From Candidatus Kuenenbacteria bacterium (GTDB lineage Bacteria > Patescibacteriota > Patescibacteriia > UBA2196 > GWA2-42-15): DNA of 64,000 bases. This document shows positions 2 through 63,997 of this stretch, in pieces. Position 1 is the first letter of the stretch. The number at the start of each line of letters is the position of its first letter. Position numbers and translations under genes: made by a program. The stretch covers positions 1,241 through 65,240 of the forward strand of contig JAAZOM010000022.1 in assembly GCA_012797775.1 (NCBI GenBank), written 5' to 3'. Under the pieces are notes generated by a model. That model was not told where the DNA came from. It made no database searches and saw only the letters and a list, made by a program, of their open reading frames with translations.

Positions 2-622
2 CCATATATACAAGAAGCGGAGTTGGCGCGGCAAATCAAATCACGGCTTCAAACAATCTCGCTTTGCGACGAAATGACCGATTGGATGTTGGAGCGCGTA
101 AAAGAATGGGAATGCGAGGAGAATTCGTCGTCGCAAAGCGAGGTTCAAAATCTTTCCGAAAATATCAAAACGGCAGAAGCGAAAATGGAAAAGTTAGTTT
201 CCACTTATCTTGATGGCAACATTCCAAAACAGACTTATCTCAAAAAGAAAGATGAAATTTTGCTCGCTTCTGCCGTTTTGGAGCAAAAGAAGAAAGATTT
301 TGAAAGCAGGAGAAAAAATTGGGTCGAACCCCTGCGGGAGTGGATTTTAGATACGAAACAGGCCGATTTTTTGGCCAAGTCGGATAATTTCCACCAAATC
401 AAAACATTTGTTCAAAAAATCGGAACGAACCCTCGGGTTCGTAACAAATCCGCCGTCTTTGATTTTTGCCCAGCCAGCCATTTCGCCGCGAAGCGGGGAA
501 TCATTTTGCGGAGCGCGGCCGCCTCGCGGCCGCGCGGAGCAATGCTTTCAAACGCTGAAGTTTCTATTGGCGGAGAGGGAGGGATTCGAACCCTCGGACC
601 CCGTGAAGGGTCAACAACTTAG
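2..622 (+). CDS. C-terminal fragment of a large serine recombinase (integrase/resolvase family). It is 5'-truncated by the window edge, and the ORF reads antisense into the tRNA, so it may be a remnant or pseudogene.
   Basis: The reading frame is open from the first base. The peptide has the coiled-coil tail typical of large serine recombinases (..KMEKLVSTYLDGNIPKQTYLKKKDEILLASAVLEQKK..). The last ~55 nt overlap tRNA-Ser antisense. Confidence 0.35.
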   Translation, partial: PYIQEAELARQIKSRLQTISLCDEMTDWMLERVKEWECEENSSSQSEVQNLSENIKTAEAKMEKLVSTYLDGNIPKQTYLKKKDEILLASAVLEQKKKDFESRRKNWVEPLREWILDTKQADFLAKSDNFHQIKTFVQKIGTNPRVRNKSAVFDFCPASHFAAKRGIILRSAAASRPRGAMLSNAEVSIGGEGGIRTLGPREGSTT

Positions 623-657
623 CAGGTTGCTGCTTTCAGCCACTCAGCCACCTCTCC
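568..657 (-). tRNA. tRNA-Ser (anticodon GCT), 90 nt with a long variable arm and encoded CCA.
   Basis: Folded by hand: acceptor GGAGAGG/CCTCTCC, 3-bp D stem GCT/AGC, anticodon stem GCAAC/GTTGT with loop CTGCTAA, variable arm GACCC-TTCAC-GGGTC, T arm GAGGG-TTCGAAT-CCCTC, discriminator G, then CCA. Confidence 0.85.
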
Positions 658-3705: not shown

Positions 3706-3782
3706 AAGCATTTACTCTGAGCGCAGCGAAGAGTCTCGCACCAAGTCAATTTACGAGACTCTCACTTCGTTCAGGATAAAAC
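3706..3782. promoter_or_regulatory. Structured rpsK-rpsD intergenic leader: a hairpin GAGTCTCG-N16-CGAGACTC followed by TTCAGGATAAAA, the reverse complement of the TTATCCTGAA motif of the dispersed element family.
   Basis: The inverted repeat is visible in the sequence, and it is the only sizeable gap inside the ribosomal-protein operon. Confidence 0.35.
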
Positions 3783-7776: not shown

Positions 7777-9498
7777 ATGCTTAACTGGCTCAAAAAATAC
7801 AAAACAGCCATATTTTTAGGCTTATTTTGCTTGGCCTTTTTTTGTATTTACGCTCATTTCAATCTACTGGTTATGCACCCAGACGGGGCAGGGGACAATC
7901 CAAAATTTTCTTCCCCGGACGAGACCGCCAATTATTTTTGGGCCAAAAGACTGGCCCAAGGCCAGCCGCTTTATTATTTTGAAGAGTTAAATGGTCCAGG
8001 CAACAACCTTATCCACCCGAGAAGCATCAATGTTATTGATGGCAAAAACGTACCCGGCTCTTTTCTAGGTTTGATTTTTATTTATGGTTCCCTCGCCAAA
8101 ATCCTCGGCCTCGGAGTCGTTCCCTATTTAACGCCATTTTTTTCCGCGCTCGGGATTTTCTTTTTTTATTTATTACTAAAAAAGATTTTTAATTCTACCC
8201 CTGTCGCTCTTATTCCCGCAACGCTCTTGGCTTTTACTCCAGCTTGGTTTTATTATTCCTGCCGAGGTATGTACCATAACGTACTGTTCACCAGTTTGTT
8301 GATTATGGGGGTTTATTTTTTATGGAAGGTTCTGGCGGAAGCTCCTAGCCCAAATTCCAAATCCCAAGCCCCAAATCAAAAATCAAAAATCAACAATCCA
8401 AAACTAATGTTATATTTCCTCTCCGGTCTTTTGATCAGCTTCGCTCTATTCACTCGCACTTCAGAAATTGTTTGGGCCGCCTTAACTATTTTTTTTATTT
8501 TCATTTTTCACTTTAAAAGGATCTATTGGCCCGGTTTTCTTTTATTTTTGGCCGCTGGAACGATCCCCATTATCGCCTTATTCTATCACAATCAGATTCT
8601 TTACGGTTCACTTATCTCTGCTGGTTATCGCGCCGTGAGTGATGCTGTATCTATTGGCGGCTTGGCTAGTGCTGGTGTTTTATTCCAGATTTTTGTCACC
8701 CCCTTTGGCATTCATCCCGGTTCCATTCTCACCAACGGTTTCAATTATCTTTATCAGCTTTTTCCGATTTGGGGCGCACTTTATTTTCTTGGCGCTTTCC
8801 TCTTCGCGATTCTCCCGACTCATATTATTAAAATCAATTATAAAAAAAGAATCGCTTATCTCGCTTATTGCTTACTGCTCACTGCTTATTTATTGATTTT
8901 TTATGGTTCTTGGGCGATCACTGATCGCATTGACCGGGAGACTCTCTCGCTTGGTACTTCTTATCTGCGTTATTGGCTGCCGATTTATATTGTTACCTTG
9001 CCGTTTGTCGCTACTATTATCTGGCAGCTCGCCAATTTTTTGACTCCGCTCCAAAAAAGAAAAATTTTTTATCAGTCAATTTTTTCTTTTGCCGCTTGCC
9101 TTTGCATATTTATGCCCACGATCAATGTGCTTTTGCGCCAGAGTGACGAAAGTTTGTTTCTTTTAAAAAACCTAAACGAAACTCGTGTTAAATCAGCCAT
9201 TGTTAATAAAATGGTCGGGCCAGAAGATATCGTCCTCGTCTACAAACAGGCGGATAAAATATTTTTCCCCGAACGCACTCTTTTAATTACCGAACTAGCT
9301 GTCCCTATTGATTATGAATCAGTCGCCACCTTGTCAAAAATCAGAGATGTCTATTATTATTCCTACGCCAATCCCAGAGACGTTGATTCCATCTCGCGCT
9401 TGCAATTTGCTCCATATGGATTGGAAATTGTCGAGGGGCAAAAGGTTTTTGGCAATGATAGACTTTATAAGATTAAAAAAATTAGACAAATACAGTAA
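7777..9498 (+). CDS. Polytopic membrane glycosyltransferase, GT-C fold, ArnT/PMT-like (GT39/GT83).
   Basis: More than 10 TM helices. The first extracytoplasmic loop carries the HP..DE motif (HPDGAGDNPKFSSPDETANYFWAKRL) typical of the ArnT/PMT family. Confidence 0.45.
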   Translation: MLNWLKKYKTAIFLGLFCLAFFCIYAHFNLLVMHPDGAGDNPKFSSPDETANYFWAKRLAQGQPLYYFEELNGPGNNLIHPRSINVIDGKNVPGSFLGLIFIYGSLAKILGLGVVPYLTPFFSALGIFFFYLLLKKIFNSTPVALIPATLLAFTPAWFYYSCRGMYHNVLFTSLLIMGVYFLWKVLAEAPSPNSKSQAPNQKSKINNPKLMLYFLSGLLISFALFTRTSEIVWAALTIFFIFIFHFKRIYWPGFLLFLAAGTIPIIALFYHNQILYGSLISAGYRAVSDAVSIGGLASAGVLFQIFVTPFGIHPGSILTNGFNYLYQLFPIWGALYFLGAFLFAILPTHIIKINYKKRIAYLAYCLLLTAYLLIFYGSWAITDRIDRETLSLGTSYLRYWLPIYIVTLPFVATIIWQLANFLTPLQKRKIFYQSIFSFAACLCIFMPTINVLLRQSDESLFLLKNLNETRVKSAIVNKMVGPEDIVLVYKQADKIFFPERTLLITELAVPIDYESVATLSKIRDVYYYSYANPRDVDSISRLQFAPYGLEIVEGQKVFGNDRLYKIKKIRQIQ

Positions 9499-9563
9499 CT
9501 TGTAACTCGCAAAAAGTAAAATTATCCCTTGTGCTAGTTACTAATTACGAGTTACTAGTTACC
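9494..9563. repeat. Dispersed palindromic repeat, copy A: AGTAACTTGTAACTCG, spacer, then CCTTGTGCTAGTTACTAATTACGAGTTACTAGTTACC.
   Basis: Shares about 35 of 37 nt with the copy at the window end (63956-63995). It overlaps the TAA stop of the upstream gene. Confidence 0.7.
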
Positions 9564-13936: not shown

Positions 13937-14998
13937 ATGCGGCTTTTAATGCTTACAAGGAAAGTTGACAGTCAAGACAGTCGGGCCAGTTTTGTTTCTG
14001 ACTGGCTTTTGGAATTAGCCCAAAACCTAGAAAAATTAGTAGTTATTTGCCAAGAAAAAGGCGATACCAGCGGCTTACCGGAAAACATTGAAATCTTTTC
14101 ATTGGGCAAAGAATTAGGCCATTCAAAAATCAAGCAATTTTTCCGCGCGCAGAAAATATTATTCAAGCTTGTCAAAAAAAGTGACGGCGTCTTGGCCCAC
14201 CAGATGCCTATTTATGGGGTTCTTGCTGGGCCTGCCAGTTGGCTGTCTCACAAAAAATTAATTCAATGGTATGCTCATGGTACTGTTGACTGGCGCTTAA
14301 AGTTGGCGAATTTTTTCGTGACCGAATTTGTCACCTCGTCAGCCGATGGTTTTCGAATGCCAACCAAAAAACCAGTGCGGGTTATTGGGCAGGGTATCAA
14401 CACTAATAAATTCAAAATTCAAAATTCAAAACTCAAAGCAAATGAAGAATTTAATATTTTGACTATTGGTCGTATTTCACCGAGTAAAGATATTGAATCC
14501 ATGATCAAGGCTGTTTATGAATTAAAAGAACAGAATGTCGATAATATAAAATTAACTATCATTGGCGCACCAGCTACGGCCGCTGGTTTTCATTATTCCC
14601 AAAATCTTCAGTCTATGGTGGAGAACATGAATCTGGGCAACCAAATCAATTTTTTTGGCGGCATTCCTCACGCTGAAACAATAAAGCATTTAGCTCAAGC
14701 TGATTTATTTTTAAATTTGAGTGATACAGGTAGTTTGGACAAAACCGTTTTGGAAGCTATGGCTGCTGGTTGCCTAGTCTTGACGAGCAATATTGCTTAC
14801 AAAAATATTTTGCCGCCTGAATTATTCACCACCAAAGACAACCCCCAAACCTTGACCCAAAAGATTAAAGAATTGATGGGCTTATCAGAACAAAAAAAAG
14901 AGGAGTTTAAAAAACAATTACGCGATGAAGTCCTCGCCCATCACAACTTGGCCGACTTTGCCAAAAAAATTGTAGGATTATATAGTAATTTATCCTGA
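13937..14998 (+). CDS. Glycosyltransferase family 4.
   Basis: GT4 C-terminal core: GRISPSKDI...EAMAAGCLVLTS. Confidence 0.65.
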   Translation: MRLLMLTRKVDSQDSRASFVSDWLLELAQNLEKLVVICQEKGDTSGLPENIEIFSLGKELGHSKIKQFFRAQKILFKLVKKSDGVLAHQMPIYGVLAGPASWLSHKKLIQWYAHGTVDWRLKLANFFVTEFVTSSADGFRMPTKKPVRVIGQGINTNKFKIQNSKLKANEEFNILTIGRISPSKDIESMIKAVYELKEQNVDNIKLTIIGAPATAAGFHYSQNLQSMVENMNLGNQINFFGGIPHAETIKHLAQADLFLNLSDTGSLDKTVLEAMAAGCLVLTSNIAYKNILPPELFTTKDNPQTLTQKIKELMGLSEQKKEEFKKQLRDEVLAHHNLADFAKKIVGLYSNLS

Positions 14999-15000
14999 AC

Positions 15001-15080
15001 CCCGATGCGAATCGGGGCGAAGGATCCCACCGTAATCCGCTCTATTTGTGGGATCTTTCGCTAACGCTCAAGATAAACTT
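15001..15080 (+). repeat. Dispersed intergenic element, copy 1: TTATCCTGA, hairpin, GAAGGATCCC, loop, GGGATCTTTCG...CTCAAGATAAA. Its TTATCCTGA supplies the upstream gene's last two codons and TGA stop.
   Basis: Alignable with the copies at 27321-27445 and 34146-34181. Confidence 0.6.
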
Positions 15081-15092
15081 CCAAATAAAAAT

Positions 15093-15959
15093 ATGAAAAT
15101 TGCCCTTATTGGCTCCACTGGACAACTCGGTACGGATTTCAAAAAAGTTATTCCTGCTCAATTTTTGGTTAATTTAGATTATCCTAATTTTGACTTAACC
15201 AAAAAAGATCTTGTCCGCGAACAATTATTAGCTATTAGACCAGACATAGTTATTAATACTGCTGCTTATAATCTAGTTGACCGGGCCGAAGATTTCCCCG
15301 AGGAAGCCCTAGCCGTGAATTATTATGGCGTAAAAAATTTGGTTGATGTTTGTTTAGAATTAGATTGTATTCTGGTTCATTACAGTAGTGATTATATTTT
15401 TGGAGGAGAGGACGATCGCCGCACCCCTTACACCGAAGAAGACCACCCCGCGCCAATCAACCAATATGGCCAGTCAAAATTATTGGGCGAACAGGAAATC
15501 ATTAAACGTTGTCAAAAATATTTTATTATCCGTACTTCTGGCCTTTTTGGCACCGCTGGCTCAGAAGGCAAAGGCGGCAATTTTATTGAATCAATTATTA
15601 AAAAAGGTAAAGAAACTGGCGAATTAAAAATTGTTGATGACCAATTTCTTACCCCTACCTATACCTTGGATTTGGCCCGCCAAAGTTGGCAGTTGATGCA
15701 AACCGAACATTTTGGTCTCTACCATGCCACCTCGGAGTGGGAGTGTAGTTGGTATGAATTTGGGAGAGAAGTGATGAAATACATTGATCCCAATATCAAA
15801 ATTATCCCGGTTAAAACTTCTGAATATCAATTGCCCGCCCAAAGACCCAAATATTGTGTTTTGGAAAATAAAAAATTAAAAGAATTAGGTTTAAATATTA
15901 TGCGCCCTTGGGCCGCCACCATTCCTGACTATCTCCAAGAGAAAGGATATCTCCAATAA
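15093..15959 (+). CDS. rfbD: dTDP-4-dehydrorhamnose reductase (RmlD family).
   Basis: MKIALIGSTGQLG..., YSSDYIFGG, YGQSK and VDDQFLTPTY are typical of RmlD. Confidence 0.65.
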   Translation: MKIALIGSTGQLGTDFKKVIPAQFLVNLDYPNFDLTKKDLVREQLLAIRPDIVINTAAYNLVDRAEDFPEEALAVNYYGVKNLVDVCLELDCILVHYSSDYIFGGEDDRRTPYTEEDHPAPINQYGQSKLLGEQEIIKRCQKYFIIRTSGLFGTAGSEGKGGNFIESIIKKGKETGELKIVDDQFLTPTYTLDLARQSWQLMQTEHFGLYHATSEWECSWYEFGREVMKYIDPNIKIIPVKTSEYQLPAQRPKYCVLENKKLKELGLNIMRPWAATIPDYLQEKGYLQ

Positions 15960-27320: not shown

Positions 27321-27445
27321 AATTTATCCTGACACTGTCTCGCGAGAGGCAAGGGAAGGATCCCATTTAGGCTCGCACTCACTATAATTTAAGTTTATAC
27401 TTATCGGGACGGGATCTTTCGTCGCTGGCTCCTCAAGATAAATTA
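27321..27445 (+). repeat. Dispersed intergenic element, copy 2: TTATCCTGAC, hairpin (TCTCGCGAGA), GAAGGATCCC, 50-nt loop, GGGATCTTTCG...CTCAAGATAAA.
   Basis: Alignable with 15001-15080 and 34146-34181. Confidence 0.6.
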
Positions 27446-27455
27446 TTACATCACA

Positions 27456-29141
27456 ATGATATTATCTTTTATAAAAAAACACTACCTTATCATCTCGATT
27501 TTGGCTATCGCTTTTATTTTGCGGCTAGTTGGGATTTTATATGGCCATCCATTAGCCCTGGTCAATGATGAAACACCCACGCTGGCTGCTAGTTTGAAGA
27601 TGATTGGCACCAGCTCACTGCGCGCCAATGCTTTTCAGTATTATTATCCGGCTGGCCTCGCCTATGTCTTTCTTCCATTTTTAGCTCTTTATCTAGTTTT
27701 TGCTAGGATTTTTGGGATATTTGGCAGTATCGCCGAGATCAAGGATATTGTTCTTTTAAATATTGGTTATTTCGCACCGGTCGCCAGGTTTGTCAGCGTT
27801 ATTCTAGGCACTGCCTCCGTTTTTTTGGTTTACCACATCAGTCAAAGATTATTTAGCCATAAAAAAATCGGCCTTTTGGCCGCTTGGTTTTTGGCTATCA
27901 ATTTTTTTCATGTGGCTAATTCTCATTATGGTCAGACTTGGACAGCCCAGTCTTTTTTTATTTTATTAGTACTGTTTTGGGCGGTTTATTTTTATCAAAA
28001 AGAAAAAATTTCTCGCTATGATTATCCCTTGGCTGGTATTTTTATCGGTTTGGCCTTTAGCATCAACTTTGTTGGTATTATCAGCTATGTTTGGTTTTTA
28101 TTGGCTCACTGGCTGAAAAATAAGGGCCAAAAGTTTGTAAAAATTTTTATTGCCAATAAGAATTTTTGGCTGGCCAATCTGGTTTTATTATTAATGATTG
28201 CTTTGGTTTATTATCTCAATCCTTTTGGCTTGAATAATTATTTTGGCCGAATTTTTAATGACAACCCCGCAACCAATAGTTACTCCTTTTTTAGTTTTAC
28301 TAGTTTAAAGATTTTATTTTCTTATCTCAAAAATGGCTTTTTAGCGGAGCCGTTATTATTTCTCCTAATTATTCCTGCCGCCCTTATTCTTTGGAGAAAG
28401 CATAAAATTGCTTTTTGTTTTTTAATACCTTGGCTGATTATTTATTTGCTTTTTCTGGCCCCATTGACCAACCCGATGGTTAGATATCTGTTGCCGACCA
28501 TTCCTTTGATGTCTATTGTTGTCGCTTTCTTTATTCACTATCTTTTTGAAAAATTTTCCGCCAAAATAAAAATTTTTATTATCATTATTTTTCTTTTGAG
28601 CTTGCCCAATCTTTTTTTTAGTTTGTTGCTTGATTATCGGATGACCAGACAAGATACCCGCCTCTTGGCTTACAGCTGGGTAGTCAATAATATCAAAAGT
28701 GGCAGCCATATCAAAAATTTAGATCTAGGCGCGGAAATTCCCTTTGTGGAAAGCAAAGAAATAGTCAGCCTGATAAAAGAAAAATTGCCCGAGCTTTATT
28801 CCAGCAAAAGAAAATATTTATCTTCACTAGAGGAGGAAAATTATCCCGATCCCAATTATGCCATTATCAATTATCCTGATCTGGTAGCCGCCGATTATGA
28901 TTTCGAATATTTGATTGTGAGTGACTTTGATAAAAATAATTTAATAAACAAAACCAAACCAACAGCTGCTTCCCAAAAGCTGATAAAATACTTTTATCCA
29001 AGTGAAAATAGCCCCCTGCCAACCAAAAGTGAGCTGGAGTTACCCTTCAATCTTTATTCGTTCGATCCCTGGTTTTTGCTCCGTTTCTATGATTATTATG
29101 GCCCCTATATTGAGATTTACGAGCTAAAAAAGACGCCATGA
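27456..29141 (+). CDS. Polytopic membrane glycosyltransferase, GT-C fold, ArnT/PMT-like (GT39/GT83).
   Basis: First loop HPLALVNDETPTLAASLKM (DE motif) and more than 10 TM helices. Confidence 0.45.
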   Translation: MILSFIKKHYLIISILAIAFILRLVGILYGHPLALVNDETPTLAASLKMIGTSSLRANAFQYYYPAGLAYVFLPFLALYLVFARIFGIFGSIAEIKDIVLLNIGYFAPVARFVSVILGTASVFLVYHISQRLFSHKKIGLLAAWFLAINFFHVANSHYGQTWTAQSFFILLVLFWAVYFYQKEKISRYDYPLAGIFIGLAFSINFVGIISYVWFLLAHWLKNKGQKFVKIFIANKNFWLANLVLLLMIALVYYLNPFGLNNYFGRIFNDNPATNSYSFFSFTSLKILFSYLKNGFLAEPLLFLLIIPAALILWRKHKIAFCFLIPWLIIYLLFLAPLTNPMVRYLLPTIPLMSIVVAFFIHYLFEKFSAKIKIFIIIIFLLSLPNLFFSLLLDYRMTRQDTRLLAYSWVVNNIKSGSHIKNLDLGAEIPFVESKEIVSLIKEKLPELYSSKRKYLSSLEEENYPDPNYAIINYPDLVAADYDFEYLIVSDFDKNNLINKTKPTAASQKLIKYFYPSENSPLPTKSELELPFNLYSFDPWFLLRFYDYYGPYIEIYELKKTP

Positions 29142-33160: not shown

Positions 33161-34195
33161 TTATATGTTCTTTAATATCTTTTTCAGCCAATAGTATGGT
33201 CCGGGCAGATAGTGGCGCAGAAAGGATTTGATCTTTTTCTTTAGACCACTATTGATGTCATAGATATACCAAAAAGTATAATTATCCGCTTGGCGATTAT
33301 TGTATTCTATTCTTGCTGGATGCTGGAGTTGAAATTCCATCGGGTAGCGCGCCATATTGGCATTTTTATCTAGCACATTGACTGTCGAGCCAGCTCCTTC
33401 GCCAAAGCCGATATTGGTGATCAAATTTTTTTTCGGAGCGATTACCAGCCCTTCGTGCATCAAGACATTATAAAACCATTGCACATCCCAGGTGCCGTCA
33501 CGCGCTTTTTTATTATCTTTTATATTATCAAAAAGATTGCTCCAATATTCTCTGACCGCATAATTGGGCAATATCTTTTTGAGTTTATCAGTCTTTCTTA
33601 TCCCCTCCCAGCTTTCCAGAAAAAATTCATAAGTGTTAAAGGCTCTTTGCCAAGTGGCCCAACCCCAGGTTTGTGCCACCTGAGAAAAATAATAGCTATC
33701 AGGACAATTAAATTTTTTATTACCTTGTTGGGTGTTCAGCCCGGCAATTTGCATTATTTTTGGGTTATCCTTGTATTTTTCTAGAAGTTCTTCGCAATAA
33801 TAAAAAAAACTTTCATCCGGCAGACAGTCGTCCTCGAGAATTATCGCCCGATCCACTTGCCCAAAAACCCACTCCAGCCCCGAGGCGATCCTCGGTCCGC
33901 AATTCATATTCACCTCAGAAAAATTCTTTTTTACCTCGCACTCCCAATCTACTTGGTCCACTACCGCCCTAGCCGCGTCGCACTTTATTTTTTCTTCGGC
34001 ATTTCTCGCTCCGTCAGCGATCACAAAAAGCTGTCTTGGCTTGACTTGTCTGATGGCATTGAGTGTTTTCTCGGTTGTATCGACGCGCCGATAAACTGTT
34101 AAAAGTATGGGGACATTAAATTGATTTTTCATATTATTATTAAGTTTATCCTGACCCCGCATTGAGTTCTGCGGGGGAAGGATCCCGTGGTTCAT
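33161..34195 (-). CDS. Putative GT-A fold glycosyltransferase (the start is likely a later ATG near 34132).
   Basis: VPILLTVYRR...LFVIADG..ILEDD (DXD-like). Confidence 0.3.
   Translation of the reverse strand: MNHGILPPQNSMRGQDKLNNNMKNQFNVPILLTVYRRVDTTEKTLNAIRQVKPRQLFVIADGARNAEEKIKCDAARAVVDQVDWECEVKKNFSEVNMNCGPRIASGLEWVFGQVDRAIILEDDCLPDESFFYYCEELLEKYKDNPKIMQIAGLNTQQGNKKFNCPDSYYFSQVAQTWGWATWQRAFNTYEFFLESWEGIRKTDKLKKILPNYAVREYWSNLFDNIKDNKKARDGTWDVQWFYNVLMHEGLVIAPKKNLITNIGFGEGAGSTVNVLDKNANMARYPMEFQLQHPARIEYNNRQADNYTFWYIYDINSGLKKKIKSFLRHYLPGPYYWLKKILKNI
34146..34181 (+). repeat. Dispersed intergenic element, copy 3 (core only): TTATCCTGAC-CCCGCATTGAGTTCTGCGGGG-GAAGGATCCC. Its TTA is the TAA stop of the minus-strand GT2 gene.
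   Basis: Same core as copies 1 and 2. Confidence 0.55.
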
Positions 34196-35138
34196 TTTTT
34201 AATGCCGCGTAAATTTTGGGCATTTTATTTTTCAAATAACCTTTCACCATTAAGTTCCTTTTTCGGCGGTAAAGCTCTTTGGCCTCTGCCGATTGTTTTG
34301 TGTTCAGTTGCTCTTTTTGTAGGAATTTCCTATATATCAGCCCATCAATTTTCAAAGCGCTTATCAAGTTTTTTATTTTTTTTGTTTTTTGGTTGCGCGC
34401 CTCATCGCGTTGCACCAATTCATCCCAGCCTATTTTGGCATAACTTTCATTTATTAATTCAAAAATAGATTTTAAATAACAAAGATGTTGCGCCTCGCTA
34501 TTGTTTCGCCCCAGAGAATTACCGTGGATACGGTGGCTCACCAAAAATTCTGGCACATTTGTTATTTGTTCCTCTTTTAAAAGTTTAACATATAAATTTA
34601 AATCTTGGGCGTACTTATATTCCTCATTATAATTGCCTATCTTGGCGATTTTGTCTTTACGGAAAAATATAGAGCTGTGCCAGATGCACGGTTTGCCAAA
34701 GATAAAATGAAACTTTATCAATTTTGTTTCTACTGGCGGCTGCCTCTTGGCCAGCATTTGGCCATTTTCGTCAATAATTTTTACCCAACTGCCCGTGAGC
34801 GCATATTTGGGGTTGCCTTCCATAAATTCATATTGTCTAGCCAGTCTTTCTGGCGCGGATAGGTCATCGGCATCGAGCCTGACAATATATTCACCTTGTG
34901 CCTCCCTGATTCCGACATTGAGAGACTTGGTTAGCCCCAAATTATATGTATTGTGAATTAATCTGATTCTCTTATCTTGTTTAGCGTAATTTTCGATTAT
35001 TTCCTTAGTTTTATCAGTCGAGGCATCATTAATTATAATAAATTCAAAATCAGTGAAAGTCTGGTTCAAAATACTCTCAATTGCTTCTGGTAAATATTTT
35101 TCCGCGTTATAAGCGGACAGCAAGACCGATACTTTCAT
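34146..35138 (-). CDS. Glycosyltransferase family 2.
   Basis: VSVLLSAYNAEKYL, NDASTD and RLDADD. Confidence 0.7.
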   Translation of the reverse strand: MKVSVLLSAYNAEKYLPEAIESILNQTFTDFEFIIINDASTDKTKEIIENYAKQDKRIRLIHNTYNLGLTKSLNVGIREAQGEYIVRLDADDLSAPERLARQYEFMEGNPKYALTGSWVKIIDENGQMLAKRQPPVETKLIKFHFIFGKPCIWHSSIFFRKDKIAKIGNYNEEYKYAQDLNLYVKLLKEEQITNVPEFLVSHRIHGNSLGRNNSEAQHLCYLKSIFELINESYAKIGWDELVQRDEARNQKTKKIKNLISALKIDGLIYRKFLQKEQLNTKQSAEAKELYRRKRNLMVKGYLKNKMPKIYAALKNEPRDPSPAELNAGSG

Positions 35139-47964: not shown

Positions 47965-50190
47965 ATGTTTGTATTCAAAAAGATAAAATTTTTATATTTA
48001 CTTGTGGTGATTAATTTTATTTCCATAAATTTTTTGCCTTATAACCCAGTTGGCGCCGCCGGTGTTTCATCGGTTGGGGAAGACTATCTTGGTAGTGAAA
48101 TGCTTTTAAAGTTAAAAAATAATGATTTTGTTTATGAGATTAAATTGCGAGACGAAACACCCCAAGAATTTATAAATAACAATATAAAAAATGATGCCGT
48201 TGATTTTATAGAGCCCAATTATATTTATCGCGCTTCTATTTTAGAGCCCAATGACCAGTATTATTCTCAGCAGGTTTACCTTTCTATTCTAAATACCCCC
48301 ATGGCCTGGGATTATACTACTGGCAGTGGTGATGTGGTGGTCGCCGTCATTGATAGTGGGGTTGATATAAAAAATCCCGATTTGGTCAATAATATCTGGC
48401 ACAACACAAAAGAAATTCCCAATAACGGCATTGATGATGACAGCAATGGTTTTGTTGATGACTATTCTGGCTGGGATTTTATTGAAGGCGTACCAGACCC
48501 CAGCCCAAAGTTTACGGGTAATTATACCTTTATGGGTATCAATCATGGTACGATTATTGCCGGGGTTATCGCCGCAGAAGGTAATAACAAAATCGGGATA
48601 ACTGGTCTTAGCTGGCACTCAAAGATAATGCCCCTTAGGGTTTTGAGCGGCGAGGGTACGGGTGATTCATATGATGTGGCTAGGGCTATTGATTATGCTC
48701 GCCTCAATGGAGCCAAAATTATAAACTTGAGCTTTATCGGAGATAAAAAATCAGAAACACTCAAGGAGGCCATCCGTCGGGCCTACCAATCTGGTATTTT
48801 ATTGGTAGCAGCGGCTGGCAATGAAGTCAATCAAGGTGAAGATCTGAAGGATAAACCGCTGTACCCAGTCTGTATGGACGGTGATAGCCCTGGCGACAAC
48901 TGGGTATTGGGTGTTGCCTCTTTGGATAACTATGATCACTTGGCTAGTTTTTCCAATTACGGTAGTTGTGTGGATATCACGACCCCGGGCGTTGGAATTT
49001 TTAGTACTCTAGTGAAAAACGATGCTCGTTTTGAATATCGCAATGAATACGGTGGGCTCTGGACAGGCACTTCCATGTCTGTACCCCAAGTCGCTGGTGC
49101 GGCGGCTTTGTTAAGATCCCTAAAGCCAGAATTGTCAGTTTTGGAGTTGCGCGATCTTCTTCTCAAAAATTCTGACAACATAGACCATCTCAACTCTAAA
49201 TATGCCGGCAGACTGGGTCGGGGCAAGTTAAATATCTTTAGGGTACTATCTGCTGCCAAAAACTCACTTAGCTCTATCGAATATCGTACAGACAAAATAA
49301 TTGTTGCCCCAGGTGTTGGTGGTGGACCCCAGATTAGAACTTATTATGAGGGCAAGCCCTATTCCCAATTTTTTGGGTTTGATAAAAATAAAAGATTTGG
49401 GGCCAATATCGCCAGTCGTGATTTGACCGGTGATGGGCAAGAAGAGTTGATCGTGTCCGCAGAAAAAGGGGAGGAGCCTTGGGTGCAGATTTTTGATATT
49501 AATGGCAATTATAAAGCAAAATTTTTGGCTTATGATAAAAATATGAAACAAGGCGTTAAGGCCAGTGCCGGTGATATAAACAATGACGGCCAAGAGGAAA
49601 TAATCACCGTACCACAGTCTGGTTACAAGCCCTTGGTAAAGATATTCAATCAAACTGGTAATCTCTTGGGTGAGTTTTATGCCTTTAATCAATTTTTTAG
49701 AGGTGGTTTAAGTATTAGTATAGGTGACGTAAACAACGATACTTTTGAAGAAATAGTTGTCGGCGCCGGGCCTGGTACGCAGAGCTTTGTAAAAATATTT
49801 AATTACCATGGTCAGCTTTCCGGTCAGTTTATTGCCTACAAGGAGAATTTCTTTGGTGGAGTCAATGTTGCTATTGGGGATGTCGACAGTGATAGCCAAA
49901 AAGAAATAATTTTAGCCCCCATGGGTAAAATGGCTCCCGAAGTTAAAATTTTTAATTTCCAAGGCCTTTTAAAATCTAGTTTTTTGGCTTATGACAAAAA
50001 ATTTATAAACGGTGTTAATGTCGCCGCCGGCGATATTAATAATGATGGTTATGATGAGATAATCACCGGCCCGGGCGCTGGCGGCGGTCCGCAGGTCAGG
50101 GTTTTTAATATCAAAGGTAAGGCGCTTATGCAGTTTATGGTTTTTAATGATAAATTTAAAGGTGGAGTAAAGGTTTCTTCAGGCAAATAA
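47965..50190 (+). CDS. Secreted S8 subtilisin-like serine protease with C-terminal FG-GAP-like repeats.
   Basis: Signal peptide. Catalytic Asp (VAVIDSGVD), His (HGTIIAGV) and Ser (GTSMSVPQVAGAAAL). Six or more copies of GD(I/V)NNDGxEEI. Confidence 0.75.
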   Translation: MFVFKKIKFLYLLVVINFISINFLPYNPVGAAGVSSVGEDYLGSEMLLKLKNNDFVYEIKLRDETPQEFINNNIKNDAVDFIEPNYIYRASILEPNDQYYSQQVYLSILNTPMAWDYTTGSGDVVVAVIDSGVDIKNPDLVNNIWHNTKEIPNNGIDDDSNGFVDDYSGWDFIEGVPDPSPKFTGNYTFMGINHGTIIAGVIAAEGNNKIGITGLSWHSKIMPLRVLSGEGTGDSYDVARAIDYARLNGAKIINLSFIGDKKSETLKEAIRRAYQSGILLVAAAGNEVNQGEDLKDKPLYPVCMDGDSPGDNWVLGVASLDNYDHLASFSNYGSCVDITTPGVGIFSTLVKNDARFEYRNEYGGLWTGTSMSVPQVAGAAALLRSLKPELSVLELRDLLLKNSDNIDHLNSKYAGRLGRGKLNIFRVLSAAKNSLSSIEYRTDKIIVAPGVGGGPQIRTYYEGKPYSQFFGFDKNKRFGANIASRDLTGDGQEELIVSAEKGEEPWVQIFDINGNYKAKFLAYDKNMKQGVKASAGDINNDGQEEIITVPQSGYKPLVKIFNQTGNLLGEFYAFNQFFRGGLSISIGDVNNDTFEEIVVGAGPGTQSFVKIFNYHGQLSGQFIAYKENFFGGVNVAIGDVDSDSQKEIILAPMGKMAPEVKIFNFQGLLKSSFLAYDKKFINGVNVAAGDINNDGYDEIITGPGAGGGPQVRVFNIKGKALMQFMVFNDKFKGGVKVSSGK

Positions 50191-58212: not shown

Positions 58213-59310
58213 ATGAAAATTTGCCTCATCAATAATCTCTACCCACCCTACAATCGCGGTGGCGCTGAGCGGGTAGTAGAAAACCAAGCCCAAGAATTTG
58301 TGACCGCTGGCCATGAGGTTTTTATTATTACCTCGAGGCCGATACAAGACCGCTCTCAAGCAGGCTCAGAAAAAATTAAAGTCTATCGCTTTTTTCCTCC
58401 CAATATCATTTCCTATTACCACCTGCAAAAATTACCCTTTCCGCTCCGCGCCCCGTGGCGTCTCTTTGACACTTTTAATTTTCACTCCTATTTTAAAATC
58501 AAAAAAATATTGCAAACAGAAAAGCCAGATATTGTCTATGCCCACAACCTAACAGGCCTTGGTCTTCTTATTCCGCGTTTAATTAAAAAATTGAAAATAA
58601 AATATACTCAAACCATGCATGATGTGGTCGGTATCCGCCCGAGCGGCCTTTTGCTTTATGGTCAGGAAAAAGAAAATATTTTTATCAAATTTTGGACCAG
58701 CTTGAATCGCTGGCTGTATAGCTCTCCAGACAAGGTTATCTTTCCGTCAGTATGGCTAAAAAAATATTATGAAGGGCATAAATTCTTCCCGCATGGCCCA
58801 AAAGAGGCTGCACAGAATTTCTACTTGCCATCAGCCAATCTATTGTTGAATAAGAAATTAAAATCCCCAGACAAAGTCACTTTTCTTTACATCGGTCAAA
58901 TCGAAAGCCACAAGGGCATTCTATTTTTAATCCAAACCCTAAACGAGTTACTAGTTACTAGTTATGAGTTACTCATTCTGGGTTCTGGCTCCCAGCTTGA
59001 ATCAGCCAAAGACCTAGCCAAAAGTAATTCACAGATCAAATTCCTCGGTTATCAGCCCAAAGAAAAGATTCAAGAATATTTAAAACAAGCCGACTACACC
59101 ATTGTCCCGTCTCTATGTTATGAGGCCTCACCTACTGTTATTTTTGAGAGCTTGGCTGTTGGTGTGCCTGTTATCGCTTCAAATCTCGGCGGCATCCCCG
59201 AATTAATCAGGGTAGGGGAGAAGGGTTATTTGTTTGAGCCGGGTAATAAAAAGCAGTTGTTAGAAATTATTGAAGATATTTATGCCACAAACCAAAATGC
59301 AAAAAATTAA
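58213..59310 (+). CDS. Glycosyltransferase family 4. It contains a dispersed-repeat-derived segment in-frame.
   Basis: N-terminal NRGGAERVV and C-terminal EASPTVIFESLAVGVPVIAS. Confidence 0.65.
   Translation: MKICLINNLYPPYNRGGAERVVENQAQEFVTAGHEVFIITSRPIQDRSQAGSEKIKVYRFFPPNIISYYHLQKLPFPLRAPWRLFDTFNFHSYFKIKKILQTEKPDIVYAHNLTGLGLLIPRLIKKLKIKYTQTMHDVVGIRPSGLLLYGQEKENIFIKFWTSLNRWLYSSPDKVIFPSVWLKKYYEGHKFFPHGPKEAAQNFYLPSANLLLNKKLKSPDKVTFLYIGQIESHKGILFLIQTLNELLVTSYELLILGSGSQLESAKDLAKSNSQIKFLGYQPKEKIQEYLKQADYTIVPSLCYEASPTVIFESLAVGVPVIASNLGGIPELIRVGEKGYLFEPGNKKQLLEIIEDIYATNQNAKN
58942..58976. repeat. Dispersed palindromic repeat, copy C, embedded in-frame in the GT4 CDS: ACGAGTTACTAGTTACTAGTTATGAGTTACTCAT, encoding ELLVTSYELL.
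   Basis: The same GTTACTAGTTAC units as copies A and D. Confidence 0.55.
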
Positions 59311-63887: not shown

Positions 63888-63997
63888 AGTAACTTGTAAC
63901 TAGTAACTCGTAATTAGTAAATGGTAGAATTTTTATTTTAAATAAAATAACAGTCCTTGTGCTAGTTACTAGTTACGAGTTACTAATTACTGCCTTG
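63888..63997. repeat. Dispersed palindromic repeat, copy D. It has left and right arms of GTAACT/AGTTAC-type units around a 27-nt AT-rich spacer and is truncated by the window end.
   Basis: The right arm CCTTGTGCTAGTTACTAGTTACGAGTTACTAATTAC matches copy A at about 35 of 37 nt. Confidence 0.7.

What the first reader, a model, noticed from the sequence alone, without database searches (positions are those of the whole stretch)
15001..15080. Dispersed two-hairpin intergenic element TTATCCTGA-stem-GAAGGATCCC-stem-CTCAAGATAAA, three copies plus a variant.
Copies at 15001-15080, 27321-27445 and 34146-34181 (core only) share a conserved TTATCCTGA(A/C)C, then a hairpin of variable sequence but conserved pairing (CCCCGATGCGAATCGGGG / TCTCGCGAGA / CCCCGCATTGAGTTCTGCGGGG), then the invariant GAAGGATCCC. 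In copies 1 and 2, GAAGGATCCC pairs across a loop with GGGATCTTTCG, followed by CTCAAGATAAA about 15-25 nt before the next start codon. Sequence-variable but pairing-conserved stems point to selection on structure (RNA or cruciform), not protein coding. The TTATCCTGA supplies stop codons: LS-TGA for the GT4 at 14998, and TAA of the minus-strand GT2 at 34146. Copy 3 sits in plus orientation upstream of a minus-strand gene, so orientation is not consistently promoter-like. It is most consistent with a miniature mobile or terminator-attenuator element family specific to the glycan cluster.
Basis: seen in the sequence. Interest (0 to 1): 0.6.

Follow-up and report, generated by a model that had tools for sequence, protein, structure and literature searches.

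The report
Dispersed palindromic (REP-like) repeat family
The repeated two-hairpin sequence is real, but it is one local family of a very widespread class of small palindromic "junk-like" repeats that insert at the ends of bacterial genes, not a regulator special to the sugar-synthesis cluster.

Summary
TTATCCTGA–hairpin–GAAGGATC occurs three times in the window, against 0 in 100 shuffles. A covariance model finds a fourth, degenerate copy between rpsK and rpsD.

The repeat is built from a hairpin unit: head, ATCCT-GA-[variable hairpin]-GA-AGGAT, tail. Copies 1, 2 and 4 are inverted tail-to-tail dimers. Copy 3 is a single unit.

The window is from a Candidatus Kuenenbacteria genome (CPR/Patescibacteria). 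The family is not specific to it or to the glycan cluster:
- The same core occurs in many phyla in a genome scan.
- The elements lie next to unrelated housekeeping genes.

They sit mainly just after stop codons, between co-directional or convergent genes. They show no strand bias, no target-site duplication, no terminator tail and no Rfam match.

Three comparisons indicate insertion:
- The rpsK–rpsD copy is present in three close relatives and absent in four more distant ones.
- Copy 3 adds 15 residues to a GT2 protein that its homologues lack.
- Two uvrA orthologues carry different family members in frame at the same linker.

The closest known kind is REP/BIME/REPIN elements, especially the CGTC-tagged REPs. 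I file it as a new member of a known kind, of moderate interest.

The parts
14989..15077 (+). Copy 1, a full inverted dimer. The left unit is 14988-15029 (+): TTTATCCTGA-A-CCCCGATGCGAATCGGGG-C-GAAGGATCCC. The spacer is 15030-15048. The right unit is 15049-15078 (-): TTTATCTTGA-GCGTTAGC-GAAAGATCCC. The GT4 stop TGA is at 14996-14998, inside the element. The rmlD-like ATG is at 15093.
   Evidence: (44.9 and 37.6 bits). Fold z-scores are -5.6 (+) and -6.2 (-) as RNA, and -5.0 and -5.2 as DNA.
27323..27442 (+). Copy 2, a full inverted dimer with a longer spacer of about 45 nt. The left unit is 27322-27365 (+), with hairpin TCTCGCGAGA in a decayed longer stem. The right unit is 27410-27443 (-). It lies between a B12-binding radical SAM gene (ends 27314) and a PMT-like glycosyltransferase gene (ATG 27456).
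   Evidence: 41.7 and 42.7 bits. Its hairpin is a degenerate version of that in L069.
34144..34187 (+). Copy 3, a single unit: GTTTATCCTGA-CCCCGCATTGAGTTCTGCGGGG-GAAGGATCCCG. On the minus strand it encodes most of the 15-residue extension (EPRDPSPAELNAGSG) and the stop codon of the GT2 gene 34146-35138. The next minus-strand gene starts at 34132.
   Evidence: (50.9 bits). The five closest GT2 homologues lack the extension.
3710..3781 (.). Copy 4, a degenerate dimer in the rpsK-rpsD spacer. The left unit is 3710-3738 (+): TTTACTCTGA-GCGCAGC-GAAGAGTCTCG, with outer stem ACTCT/AGAGT. That stem differs from ATCCT/AGGAT by two compensated pairs. The right unit is 3754-3781 (-): TTTATCCTGA-AC-GAAGTGAGAGTCTCG, partly decayed.
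   Evidence: 20.8 bits, E 0.002, and 10.8 bits; not in the seed alignment. Presence or absence among relatives is shown.

Best explanation
These are four members of a family of REP-like (repetitive extragenic palindrome) elements. They are short non-coding palindromic repeats that have been inserted at the ends of genes.

**Anatomy.** The building block is one hairpin unit.
- It has a short head: NTTT in this genome, TGTC in many relatives.
- The outer stem is 5 bp, ATCCT/AGGAT.
- Two facing G·A mismatches (TGA.../...GAA) follow.
- Inside is a hairpin of free sequence, and then a C-rich tail.

Two units in inverted, tail-to-tail orientation around a 13-50 nt spacer make the full element, like a BIME or REPIN. 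A single unit (copy 3) is either a half or a remnant.

**Shown here.**
- The unit and dimer anatomy.
- Covariation of the inner hairpin and of the outer stem.
- A position just 3' of stop codons inside operons.
- Wide distribution across phyla.
- Absence of any conserved neighbouring gene.
- Insertion or absence polymorphism at orthologous sites.

**Inferred.**
- The elements spread as folded single-stranded DNA hairpins, mobilised in trans by an enzyme encoded elsewhere. REPs are thought to spread this way through Y1/HUH transposases. Here the enzyme is unidentified.
- Once inserted, they are co-transcribed with the operon. There the hairpin can act, like E. coli REPs, as a passive mRNA 3'-end protector or processing site.

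I see them mainly as selfish or neutral passengers, not as a dedicated regulator of the glycan genes.
For: **1. Unit and dimer anatomy.** Model R1, built on units, recovers every half-element and the unseeded copy 4.

**2. The local unit hairpin is what is conserved.**
- The inner hairpin covaries.
- The pair closing it after the G·A step is G-C in 149, C-G in 15 and A-T in 10 of 188 units.
- The outer stem shows linked double changes within a unit: ATCCT/AGGAT becomes ATCTT/AAGAT in all six CPR-type right units. That change turns the long-range pairings into C·A and G·U.
- Other outer-stem variants are ACTCT/AGAGT in copy 4, ATTCT/AGAAT in Planktothrix and ATCCC/GGGAT in L051.

**3. Distribution.**
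- 71 genome loci matched. 23 carry the extended G...C signature, against about 4 expected (my own estimate), and about 9 more are CPR-type hairpins.
- These come from Patescibacteria, Bacteroidota, Alpha- and Gammaproteobacteria, Bdellovibrionota, Planctomycetia, Acidobacteriota, Omnitrophota and Margulisiibacteriota.
- Planktothrix plasmids also carry members.

**4. Context.**
- 46 elements lie between co-directional genes, 12 between convergent and 3 between divergent genes.
- The median distance from the upstream stop is 11 nt.
- The element's own TGA is the stop codon in 7 cases.
- 148 neighbouring ORFs hit 147 different Pfam families.

**5. Insertion events.**
- The rpsK-rpsD spacer is 96-116 nt with the element in the window, L194 and L195. 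It is 16-33 nt without it in L196-L199.
- The GT2 C-terminal extension is absent in homologues.
- uvrA orthologues L034 and L051 carry different members in frame at the same linker.

**6. Persistence.** Orthologous loci at about 80% nucleotide identity keep the element at the same place.

**7. Features that fit a DNA hairpin.**
- There is no target-site duplication.
- There is no strand bias of folding.
- 60% of units contain C-GNA-G, with all four N, against 12% in shuffles. From my own knowledge, d(GCGNAGC) is a classically stable DNA mini-hairpin.

**8. Literature.** CGTC/TGTC-tagged REPs have stems starting with AT, 3-nt tails and inverted dimers. They lie downstream of ORFs, occur in frame within repair genes and have no dedicated transposase (PMC3733652).
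Against: **No mobilising enzyme was found.**
- There is no RayT-like ORF in about 1.3 Mb of flanking DNA. This was a single-sequence phmmer search of limited sensitivity.
- No transposase family is enriched among the neighbours.
- Only 64 kb of this genome could be examined.

**The defining REP tags are missing.** The window copies lack the GTAG or CGTC head.

**Conservation is unusually broad.** The same 8-10 nt core sequences recur across many phyla. That is broader than for classical RAYT-linked REPs and could point to a conserved host function instead.

**Persistence cuts both ways.** Retention at orthologous sites down to about 80% nucleotide identity is also what a useful element would show.

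**The surveys are biased.** The genome and metagenome surveys used exact-match patterns derived from the window copies. Head types, stem variants and copy numbers are therefore sampled with bias.
Confidence: 0.72

Rival explanations
1. It is a host-serving RNA element. The hairpins would be kept by selection because, once transcribed within operons, they stabilise the upstream mRNA segment, create RNase processing sites, or tune the relative expression of neighbouring genes. New copies would arise by recombination or gene conversion rather than by transposition.
For: - The elements lie immediately after stop codons. They are depleted between divergent genes, 3 of 61.
- They persist at orthologous sites at about 80% nucleotide identity.
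- Their folds are strong, with z-scores of -5.6 to -6.2 for copy 1.
- Published REP work assigns such roles (PMC3733652).
Against: - Sense and antisense strands fold equally well, 15 against 14, Wilcoxon p = 0.4.
- The orientation of the asymmetric CPR dimer relative to transcription is mixed: 3 sense and 3 antisense.
- Copies occur in frame inside uvrA and over a gene's stop codon.
- Close relatives do without the rpsK-rpsD copy.
- Copies 2 and 4 are visibly decaying.

This reading overlaps with the best explanation rather than excluding it.
Confidence: 0.15
2. It is a classical MITE: a deletion derivative of a DDE-transposase insertion sequence. On this reading TTTATCCTGA/TCAAGATAAA are terminal inverted repeats recognised by a cut-and-paste transposase.
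For: - The 10-nt ends are inverted repeats.
- The size is 80-120 bp.
- The copies are dispersed.
- There is insertion polymorphism.
- Two neighbouring ORFs in other loci are IS110-family transposases.
Against: - No target-site duplication appears at any boundary offset.
- The "TIRs" are simply the heads of two inverted hairpin units.
- Single units exist on their own, such as copy 3 and L034.
- Heterodimers of different unit subtypes are the rule. Only 5 of 94 dimers have a left hairpin that is the exact reverse complement of the right.
- No full-length element with a transposase between such ends was seen in about 200 loci.
- From my own knowledge, IS110 family members target REP-like hairpins rather than carry them.
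Confidence: 0.08
3. It is a cis-regulatory terminator-attenuator or riboswitch-like leader for the downstream glycan genes. It would use competition between the ATCCT/AGGAT pairing and the GAAGGATCCC/GGGATCTTTCG pairing.
For: - Two mutually exclusive pairings exist for GAAGGATCCC.
- Copies 1 and 2 end 13-15 nt before a start codon.
Against: - Copies 1 and 2 have no T-tract or terminator-like site.
- Rfam gives no match.
- The family is not tied to any gene class.
- It occurs in both orientations and inside coding sequence.
- The alternative pairing is an automatic result of the inverted-dimer layout.
Confidence: 0.04

Closest known systems
CGTC-tagged REP superfamily (Di Nocera, De Gregorio & Rocco 2013, PMC3733652)
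   Same: - It is a short hairpin unit with a 4-nt head. That head is CGTC, often TGTC, and many relatives of the window element begin TGTC-ATCC...
- The stem starts with A-T, T-A, and the tail is 3 nt.
- Units are mostly arranged as inverted dimers, often heterodimers, with spacers of 20-100 bp whose ends can pair.
- They lie downstream of ORFs, between co-directional and convergent genes.
- In-frame copies occur inside replication and repair genes.
- They are found in several phyla, and no dedicated transposase is known.

Sources: compared.
   Different: - The window copies have the head (A/G/T)TTT, not CGTC, TGTC or CCTC.
- The stem is interrupted by two G·A mismatches, where CGTC REPs have 8-9 Watson-Crick pairs.
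- A nested hairpin of 7-27 nt of free sequence replaces the 4-5 nt loop.
- The tail is CCC or CTC, not CCA.
- The dimers here are tail-to-tail, with heads outside. I could not check how that paper defines its predominant "HH" class, because the figures are not held.
- That paper does not list CPR/Patescibacteria among its host phyla.
E. coli REP/BIME elements and Pseudomonas REPINs with their RAYT (TnpA-REP) transposases
   Same: - Imperfect palindromic units are paired in inverted orientation.
- The two partner units differ in type, like the Y and Z REPs.
- They form tandem clusters in some loci; L151 carries five dimers in 900 bp.
- They have no target duplication and lie close behind stop codons.
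- They persist for long periods at orthologous sites.
   Different: - There is no GT[AG]G head.
- No RAYT gene was found nearby.
- Classical REP families are specific to a species or genus and tied to their own RAYT (PMC6006769). This core sequence recurs across phyla.
Bacterial MITEs (Correia/NEMIS, RUP, ERIC, Nezha)
   Same: - The size is about 80-120 bp.
- The ends are inverted.
- They are intergenic and co-transcribed.
- They can supply stop codons or in-frame peptide segments.
   Different: - No target-site duplication is present.
- No parent insertion sequence is known.
- The repeat decomposes into independent hairpin units that also occur singly.

Membership tests
REP / BIME / REPIN class (generic) | A short imperfect palindromic unit that folds as a hairpin, with structure conserved more than sequence. 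| tested here: met
   The inner hairpin is 86-91% paired, against at most 51% in slid controls. Double-change cells number 41 and 121, against 13.7 and 45.7 in shuffles.
REP / BIME / REPIN class (generic) | Units commonly paired in inverted orientation around a short spacer, with single units as well. | tested here: met
   Copies 1, 2 and 4 are dimers and copy 3 is a single unit. About 100 distinct dimers were found in metagenomes.
REP / BIME / REPIN class (generic) | Many dispersed extragenic copies per genome. | tested here: inconclusive
   There are 7 units (4 elements) in 64 kb. The rest of this genome is not available. Other CPR genomes show 2-4 hits each under an exact-match pattern.
REP / BIME / REPIN class (generic) | Located mainly 3' of genes, between co-directional or convergent ORFs. 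| tested here: met
   46 are co-directional, 12 convergent and 3 divergent. The median distance from the upstream stop is 11 nt.
RAYT-associated REPs (GTAG type) | A conserved GT[AG]G tetranucleotide at the foot of the hairpin. | tested here: not met
   The heads are NTTT or TGTC. No GTAG or CTAC flanks the units.
RAYT-associated REPs (GTAG type) | A cognate Y1 (RAYT) transposase gene in the genome, flanked by the repeats. | tested here: inconclusive
   A phmmer search with E. coli RayT found no hit among 7,890 ORFs from the window and about 200 loci. No Y1 family stood out among 148 neighbours. The whole genome could not be searched.
CGTC-tagged REP superfamily (PMC3733652) | An unpaired CGTC head, with TGTC or CCTC as variants. 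| tested here: not met
   The window units begin ATTT, GTTT or TTTT. Many relatives in the same family do begin TGTC.
CGTC-tagged REP superfamily (PMC3733652) | A stem of 8-9 bp beginning A-T, T-A, with a loop of 4-5 nt. | tested here: not met
   The stem does begin AT. However, it is 5 bp plus two G·A mismatches plus a nested hairpin of 7-27 nt. Only the minimal relatives (ATCCTGAGC-GAA-GCGAAGGAT) approach the 9-position stem.
CGTC-tagged REP superfamily (PMC3733652) | A 3-nt tail, inverted dimers, in-frame intragenic copies in repair genes, and no linked transposase. | tested here: met
   The tails are CCC or CTC. Dimers are shown. No transposase link was found.
MITE (TIR plus TSD, transposase-derived) | A target-site duplication flanking terminal inverted repeats. 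| tested here: not met
   No duplication beyond composition effects was found at offsets 0-5 and lengths 2-8 in 100 elements.
Intrinsic terminator | A GC-rich hairpin followed directly by a U-tract on the transcribed strand. | tested here: not met
   The scan found no terminator-like site at copies 1 or 2. The one at 34169-34190 is on the strand opposite to the flanking genes.
Any Rfam RNA family (riboswitch, leader, ribozyme, sRNA) | A match to a curated covariance model. | tested here: not met
   The window gave only a tRNA at gathering threshold. Copy 1 at E up to 10 gave only noise. Twenty loci that carry elements gave only a tmRNA.
Integron attC site | R''/R' core sites (RYYYAAC ... GTTRRRY) at the ends of the palindrome. 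| tested here: not met
   Read directly from the sequence. The ends are TTTATCCTGA and TCAAGATAAA, and no GTTRRRY is present.

The most novel reading that the evidence does not exclude
The core ATCCTGAG...CGAAGGAT, with its tandem G·A step and its GNA-triloop or free hairpin, may define a near pan-bacterial palindromic element with no transposase of its own. It would reach even into the minimal genomes of CPR bacteria. It would be copied or maintained through a universally conserved host activity that recognises the folded hairpin, for example a replication, repair or RNA-processing enzyme. If so, the shared sequence across phyla marks a conserved molecular recognition site that has not been described. 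It would not reflect recent horizontal spread of a conventional mobile element.
Probability: 0.15. Interest if true: 0.7.

Novelty: new member of a known kind. Interest (0 to 1): 0.35.

Why it matters
**For this window.** The finding removes a tempting but wrong reading, that of a regulator dedicated to the glycan cluster. It also explains three annotation oddities:
- a stop codon supplied by the repeat for GT4;
- a 15-residue repeat-encoded tail on GT2;
- a 98-nt spacer inside the otherwise tightly packed rpsK-rpsD junction.

**More generally.**
- REP-like palindromic repeats populate CPR/Patescibacteria genomes of about 1 Mb.
- There they insert at gene ends, and in frame inside uvrA.
- The same conserved core is shared with elements from many other phyla, with no transposase in sight.

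That breadth, and the DNA-hairpin flavour of the motif, make the family a reasonable handle on an open question: how transposase-less REPs of the CGTC type are propagated.

**Practical consequence.** Translations of these repeats create spurious short ORFs and spurious protein extensions in MAG annotation.

Tried and rejected
- **Rfam searches.** I searched the window, copy 1 at a permissive threshold, and 20 element-bearing loci. Nothing relevant appeared.
- **Literal searches of the paper library.** I used the core DNA strings and the peptides they would encode (HPERSEGS, ILSEAKDL and similar). These returned only primers and unrelated text.
- **Hammerhead ribozyme idea** (CUGA...GAA around a hairpin). 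I rejected it by inspection, because the core lacks the N-G-A of CUGANGA. Rfam, which holds the ribozyme models, is also silent.
- **DnaA box idea** (TTATCCACA against TTATCCTGA). I rejected it because the CACA half is missing and many relatives start GTCATCC instead.
- **Phage carriage.** The viral scan gave 4 hits. All are coding-sequence chance matches without the hairpins.
- **Search for a conserved neighbouring gene or a RAYT.** None was found.
- **Search for target-site duplications.** None was found.
- **Test for selection on the sense RNA strand.** No bias was found.
- **A crude "closing pairs" classifier for the 71 genome hits.** Its control rate was high (16%), so I replaced it with the G...C signature and per-hairpin z-scores.
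- **TTATCCTGA at 28871.** It lies in coding sequence without the rest of the motif and is not a copy.

Full report
**1. The observation**

- TTTATCCTGA starts at 14989, 27323 and 34145 on the + strand.
- A hairpin follows, and then GAAGGATCCC at 15019, 27355 and 34177.
- Copies 1 and 2 go on to GGGATCTTTCG (15050, 27411) and CTCAAGATAAA (15067, 27432).

The composite pattern TTATCCTGA-N12-35-GAAGGATC occurs 3 times, against 0 in 100 shuffles.

The stop-codon remarks are correct.
- GT4 ends ...YSNLS-TGA inside the motif.
- The minus-strand GT2 ends at the TAA supplied by the motif.

- a GT4 glycosyltransferase and an RmlD-like reductase around copy 1;
- a B12-binding radical SAM enzyme and a PMT-like glycosyltransferase around copy 2;
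- a GT2 glycosyltransferase and an unassigned ORF around copy 3.

**2. Anatomy**

The element is quasi-palindromic.
- TTTATCCTGA is complementary to TCAAGATAAA.
- CGAAGGATCCC is complementary to GGGATCTTTCG.
- Both strands fold about equally well. Copy 1 gives z = -5.6 (+) and -6.2 (-) as RNA, and -5.0 and -5.2 as DNA.

Comparison with relatives shows that each half is the same hairpin unit. The unit is: head, ATCCT-GA-[hairpin]-GA-AGGAT, tail. The right half of copies 1 and 2, read on the other strand, is TTTATCTTGA-[GCGTTAGC or GGAGCCAGCGAC]-GAAAGATCCC. The full element is therefore a tail-to-tail inverted dimer of two units. Copy 3 is one unit.

A covariance model of the unit (R1) was run unfiltered over the window.
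- It recovers the five seed units.
- It also finds two units that were not in the seed, at 3710-3738 (+) with 20.8 bits and E 0.002, and at 3754-3781 (-) with 10.8 bits.
- Together these form a fourth, degenerate dimer between rpsK and rpsD.

**3. Which pairing is conserved**

The inner hairpin varies freely in sequence but stays paired.
- In 29 CPR-type units, 86% of cells are paired, against at most 51% with slid partners. There are 41 double-change cells, against 13.7 in shuffles.
- In 133 further distinct units from metagenomes, 91% are paired, against at most 46%. There are 121 double-change cells, against 45.7. That alignment was fitted to the model, so it leans towards the structure.

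The outer 5-bp stem also covaries within the unit.
- All six CPR-type right units carry the linked pair of changes C to T and G to A (ATCTT/AAGAT). This keeps the local stem but turns the long-range pairings into C·A and G·U.
- The left unit of copy 4 has ACTCT/AGAGT.
- A Planktothrix relative has ATTCT/AGAAT.
- An element in L051 has ATCCC/GGGAT.

These are few independent events. Even so, they all point to the local unit hairpin, not to a long-range switch, as the conserved feature.

Two further features of the units stand out.
- 60% of 188 units contain C-GNA-G, with every N represented, against 12% in shuffles.
- The pair that closes the inner hairpin after the G·A step is G-C in 149, C-G in 15 and A-T in 10.

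**4. Where else it occurs**

The S4 protein of the window is identical to one annotated from a Candidatus Kuenenbacteria bacterium, on a contig of 91,747 bp.

*Genome scan.* A scan of one genome per species for TTTATCCTGA-N12-35-GAAGGATCCC gave 71 loci.
- About 17-25 matches would be expected by chance. This is my own estimate, and roughly half the hits are indeed plain coding matches.
- 23 hits carry the extended CCTGAG...CGAAGG signature, against about 4 expected, again my own estimate.
- About 9 more are CPR-type GC-rich hairpins.
- They come from Patescibacteria (Kuenen-, Roizman-, Falkow- and Magasanikbacteria and unnamed groups), Bacteroidota, Rhodovibrio, Gammaproteobacteria, Bdellovibrionota, Planctomycetia, Acidobacteriota, Omnitrophota and Margulisiibacteriota.

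It yielded about 100 distinct dimers. Many of these have the head TGTC instead of NTTT at one or both ends.

*Other collections.*
- Planktothrix plasmids carry relatives.
- The viral collection gave only chance coding matches.
- Rfam has no family for any of this.

**5. Genomic context**

Among elements with two callable neighbours, 46 lie between co-directional genes, 12 between convergent genes and 3 between divergent genes.
- The upstream stop codon is a median of 11 nt away.
- In 7 cases the stop is the TGA of the element's own end.
- The 148 nearest ORFs hit 147 different Pfam families, including NusA, DnaN, IF3, tRNA synthetases and glycosyltransferases. No gene travels with the element.
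- One CPR copy lies 14 nt after a tmRNA gene.
- Sense and antisense strands fold equally well, 15 against 14.
- No target-site duplication is present.
- Copies 1 and 2 are not terminator-like.

**6. Evidence for insertion**

(a) *The rpsK-rpsD spacer*.
- It is 96-116 nt and contains the element in the window and in the two closest relatives, whose S4 proteins are 85% and 82% identical.
- It is 16-33 nt with no trace of the element in four more distant relatives (79%, 70%, 69% and 66%).
- Among the three carriers the ends are conserved, while the centre has diverged.

(b) *The GT2 gene next to copy 3*. It ends ...YAALKN-EPRDPSPAELNAGSG. Its five closest homologues (65-68% identity, 309-315 residues) stop at or a few residues after ...LKN. 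The repeat therefore overwrote the original stop codon.

(c) *Two CPR uvrA orthologues* with about 85% identical flanks.
- At the same linker, one carries a single unit in frame, encoding FILNPANLRGEGSH.
- The other carries a different dimer of the TGTCATCCCGAG type in frame.

Against rapid turnover, several soil loci at about 80% nucleotide identity keep their element at the same site. The elements can therefore be long-lived.

**7. Interpretation**

The anatomy, context and insertion record match the REP/BIME/REPIN class of bacterial palindromic repeats.

The closest described group is the CGTC-tagged REP superfamily (PMC3733652). Its features are:
- a CGTC or TGTC head;
- a stem beginning AT and a 3-nt tail;
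- inverted dimers, often heterodimers;
- a position downstream of ORFs;
- in-frame copies in repair genes;
- presence in several phyla;
- no dedicated transposase.

The window elements fail two of its defining features. The head is different, and the 8-9 bp stem with a 4-5 nt loop is not present. They add a tandem G·A step and a nested free hairpin. I therefore file them as a related new family, not as members.

The mode of spread is inferred, not shown. These features fit propagation as folded single-stranded DNA, as proposed for REPs and IS200/IS605 elements (PMC6006769):
- hairpin units with fixed mismatches;
- GNA mini-hairpins;
- no duplication of the target;
- symmetry between the strands.

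No RayT-like gene was found in the 1.3 Mb of flanks available. That test is weak, because it used a single query sequence and whole genomes could not be searched.

An RNA-level by-product role, as an mRNA 3'-end protector or a processing site within operons, is plausible from position alone. It is untested.

**8. Verdict**

- "Terminator-attenuator" and "specific to the glycan cluster" are not supported.

The kind of element has been known since the 1980s, so overall interest is moderate. Two things are less ordinary: REP-like repeats in CPR genomes, and the near-identical core shared across many phyla without an associated transposase.

Noticed in passing
window 9494-9562, 58946-58973, 63888-63991: A second intergenic repeat family made of heptamer arrays, (AGTAACT)n and its complement (CTAGTTA)n. 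At 9494-9562 and 63888-63991 the arrays are arranged as inverted arms around a spacer, with a shared CCTTGTGC before the second arm. It resembles cyanobacterial STRR-type heptamer repeats. A similar heptamer run (GTAATCC and GTAATTC) sits beside the uvrA insertion in L051.
   Followed up: partly
window 568-657 (-) and 763-800: There is a tRNA-Ser(GCT) gene here. A 38-nt stretch covering its 5' part (632-669) is repeated at 87% identity at 763-800. This may be a leftover attachment-site duplication from an integrated element.
   Followed up: no
L034 3094-5778 (-), uvrA: Besides the REP-like unit, this CPR uvrA carries two further short in-frame insertions. Both translate as VGAGLVPA(H/Q) at positions where the L051 orthologue has other sequence. 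This suggests another hairpin repeat family that inserts in frame.
   Followed up: no
L151 1065-1951: Five dimers of the same family lie in tandem within about 900 bp of non-coding DNA, a BIME-like cluster. L054 (Roizmanbacteria) has four units on one strand within about 2 kb. L006 has a tandem array of about 50-nt units that contain the core.
   Followed up: partly
neighbour ORF set of alignment A1 (loci L073-L192): Two of the 148 ORFs next to elements match the IS110-family transposase domain PF01548. From my own knowledge, this family is known to target REP-like hairpins. I did not identify which loci these are.
   Followed up: no
L172 2049-2449 and 2463-2545 (= L014 229-311): In a Patescibacteria genome a full dimer lies 14 nt after the 3' end of the tmRNA gene.
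   Followed up: no
L193 1440-1640 (Planktothrix agardhii plasmid NZ_LR882964.1): Several units of the family (TGTCATTCTGAGC...) sit inside a region annotated as one 4.7-kb MmeI-type restriction-modification CDS. I did not check whether these are in-frame insertions or annotation read-through.
   Followed up: no
window 49489-49609 and 49948-50068: A 121-nt direct repeat at 71% identity lies inside the 741-residue ORF 47965-50190. It is probably an internal protein repeat.
   Followed up: no
window 27869-27882: A perfect 14-nt palindrome, CGGCCTTTTGGCCG, with T-rich flanks on both strands lies inside the PMT-like ORF. The scan scored it as a bidirectional terminator-like site.
   Followed up: no
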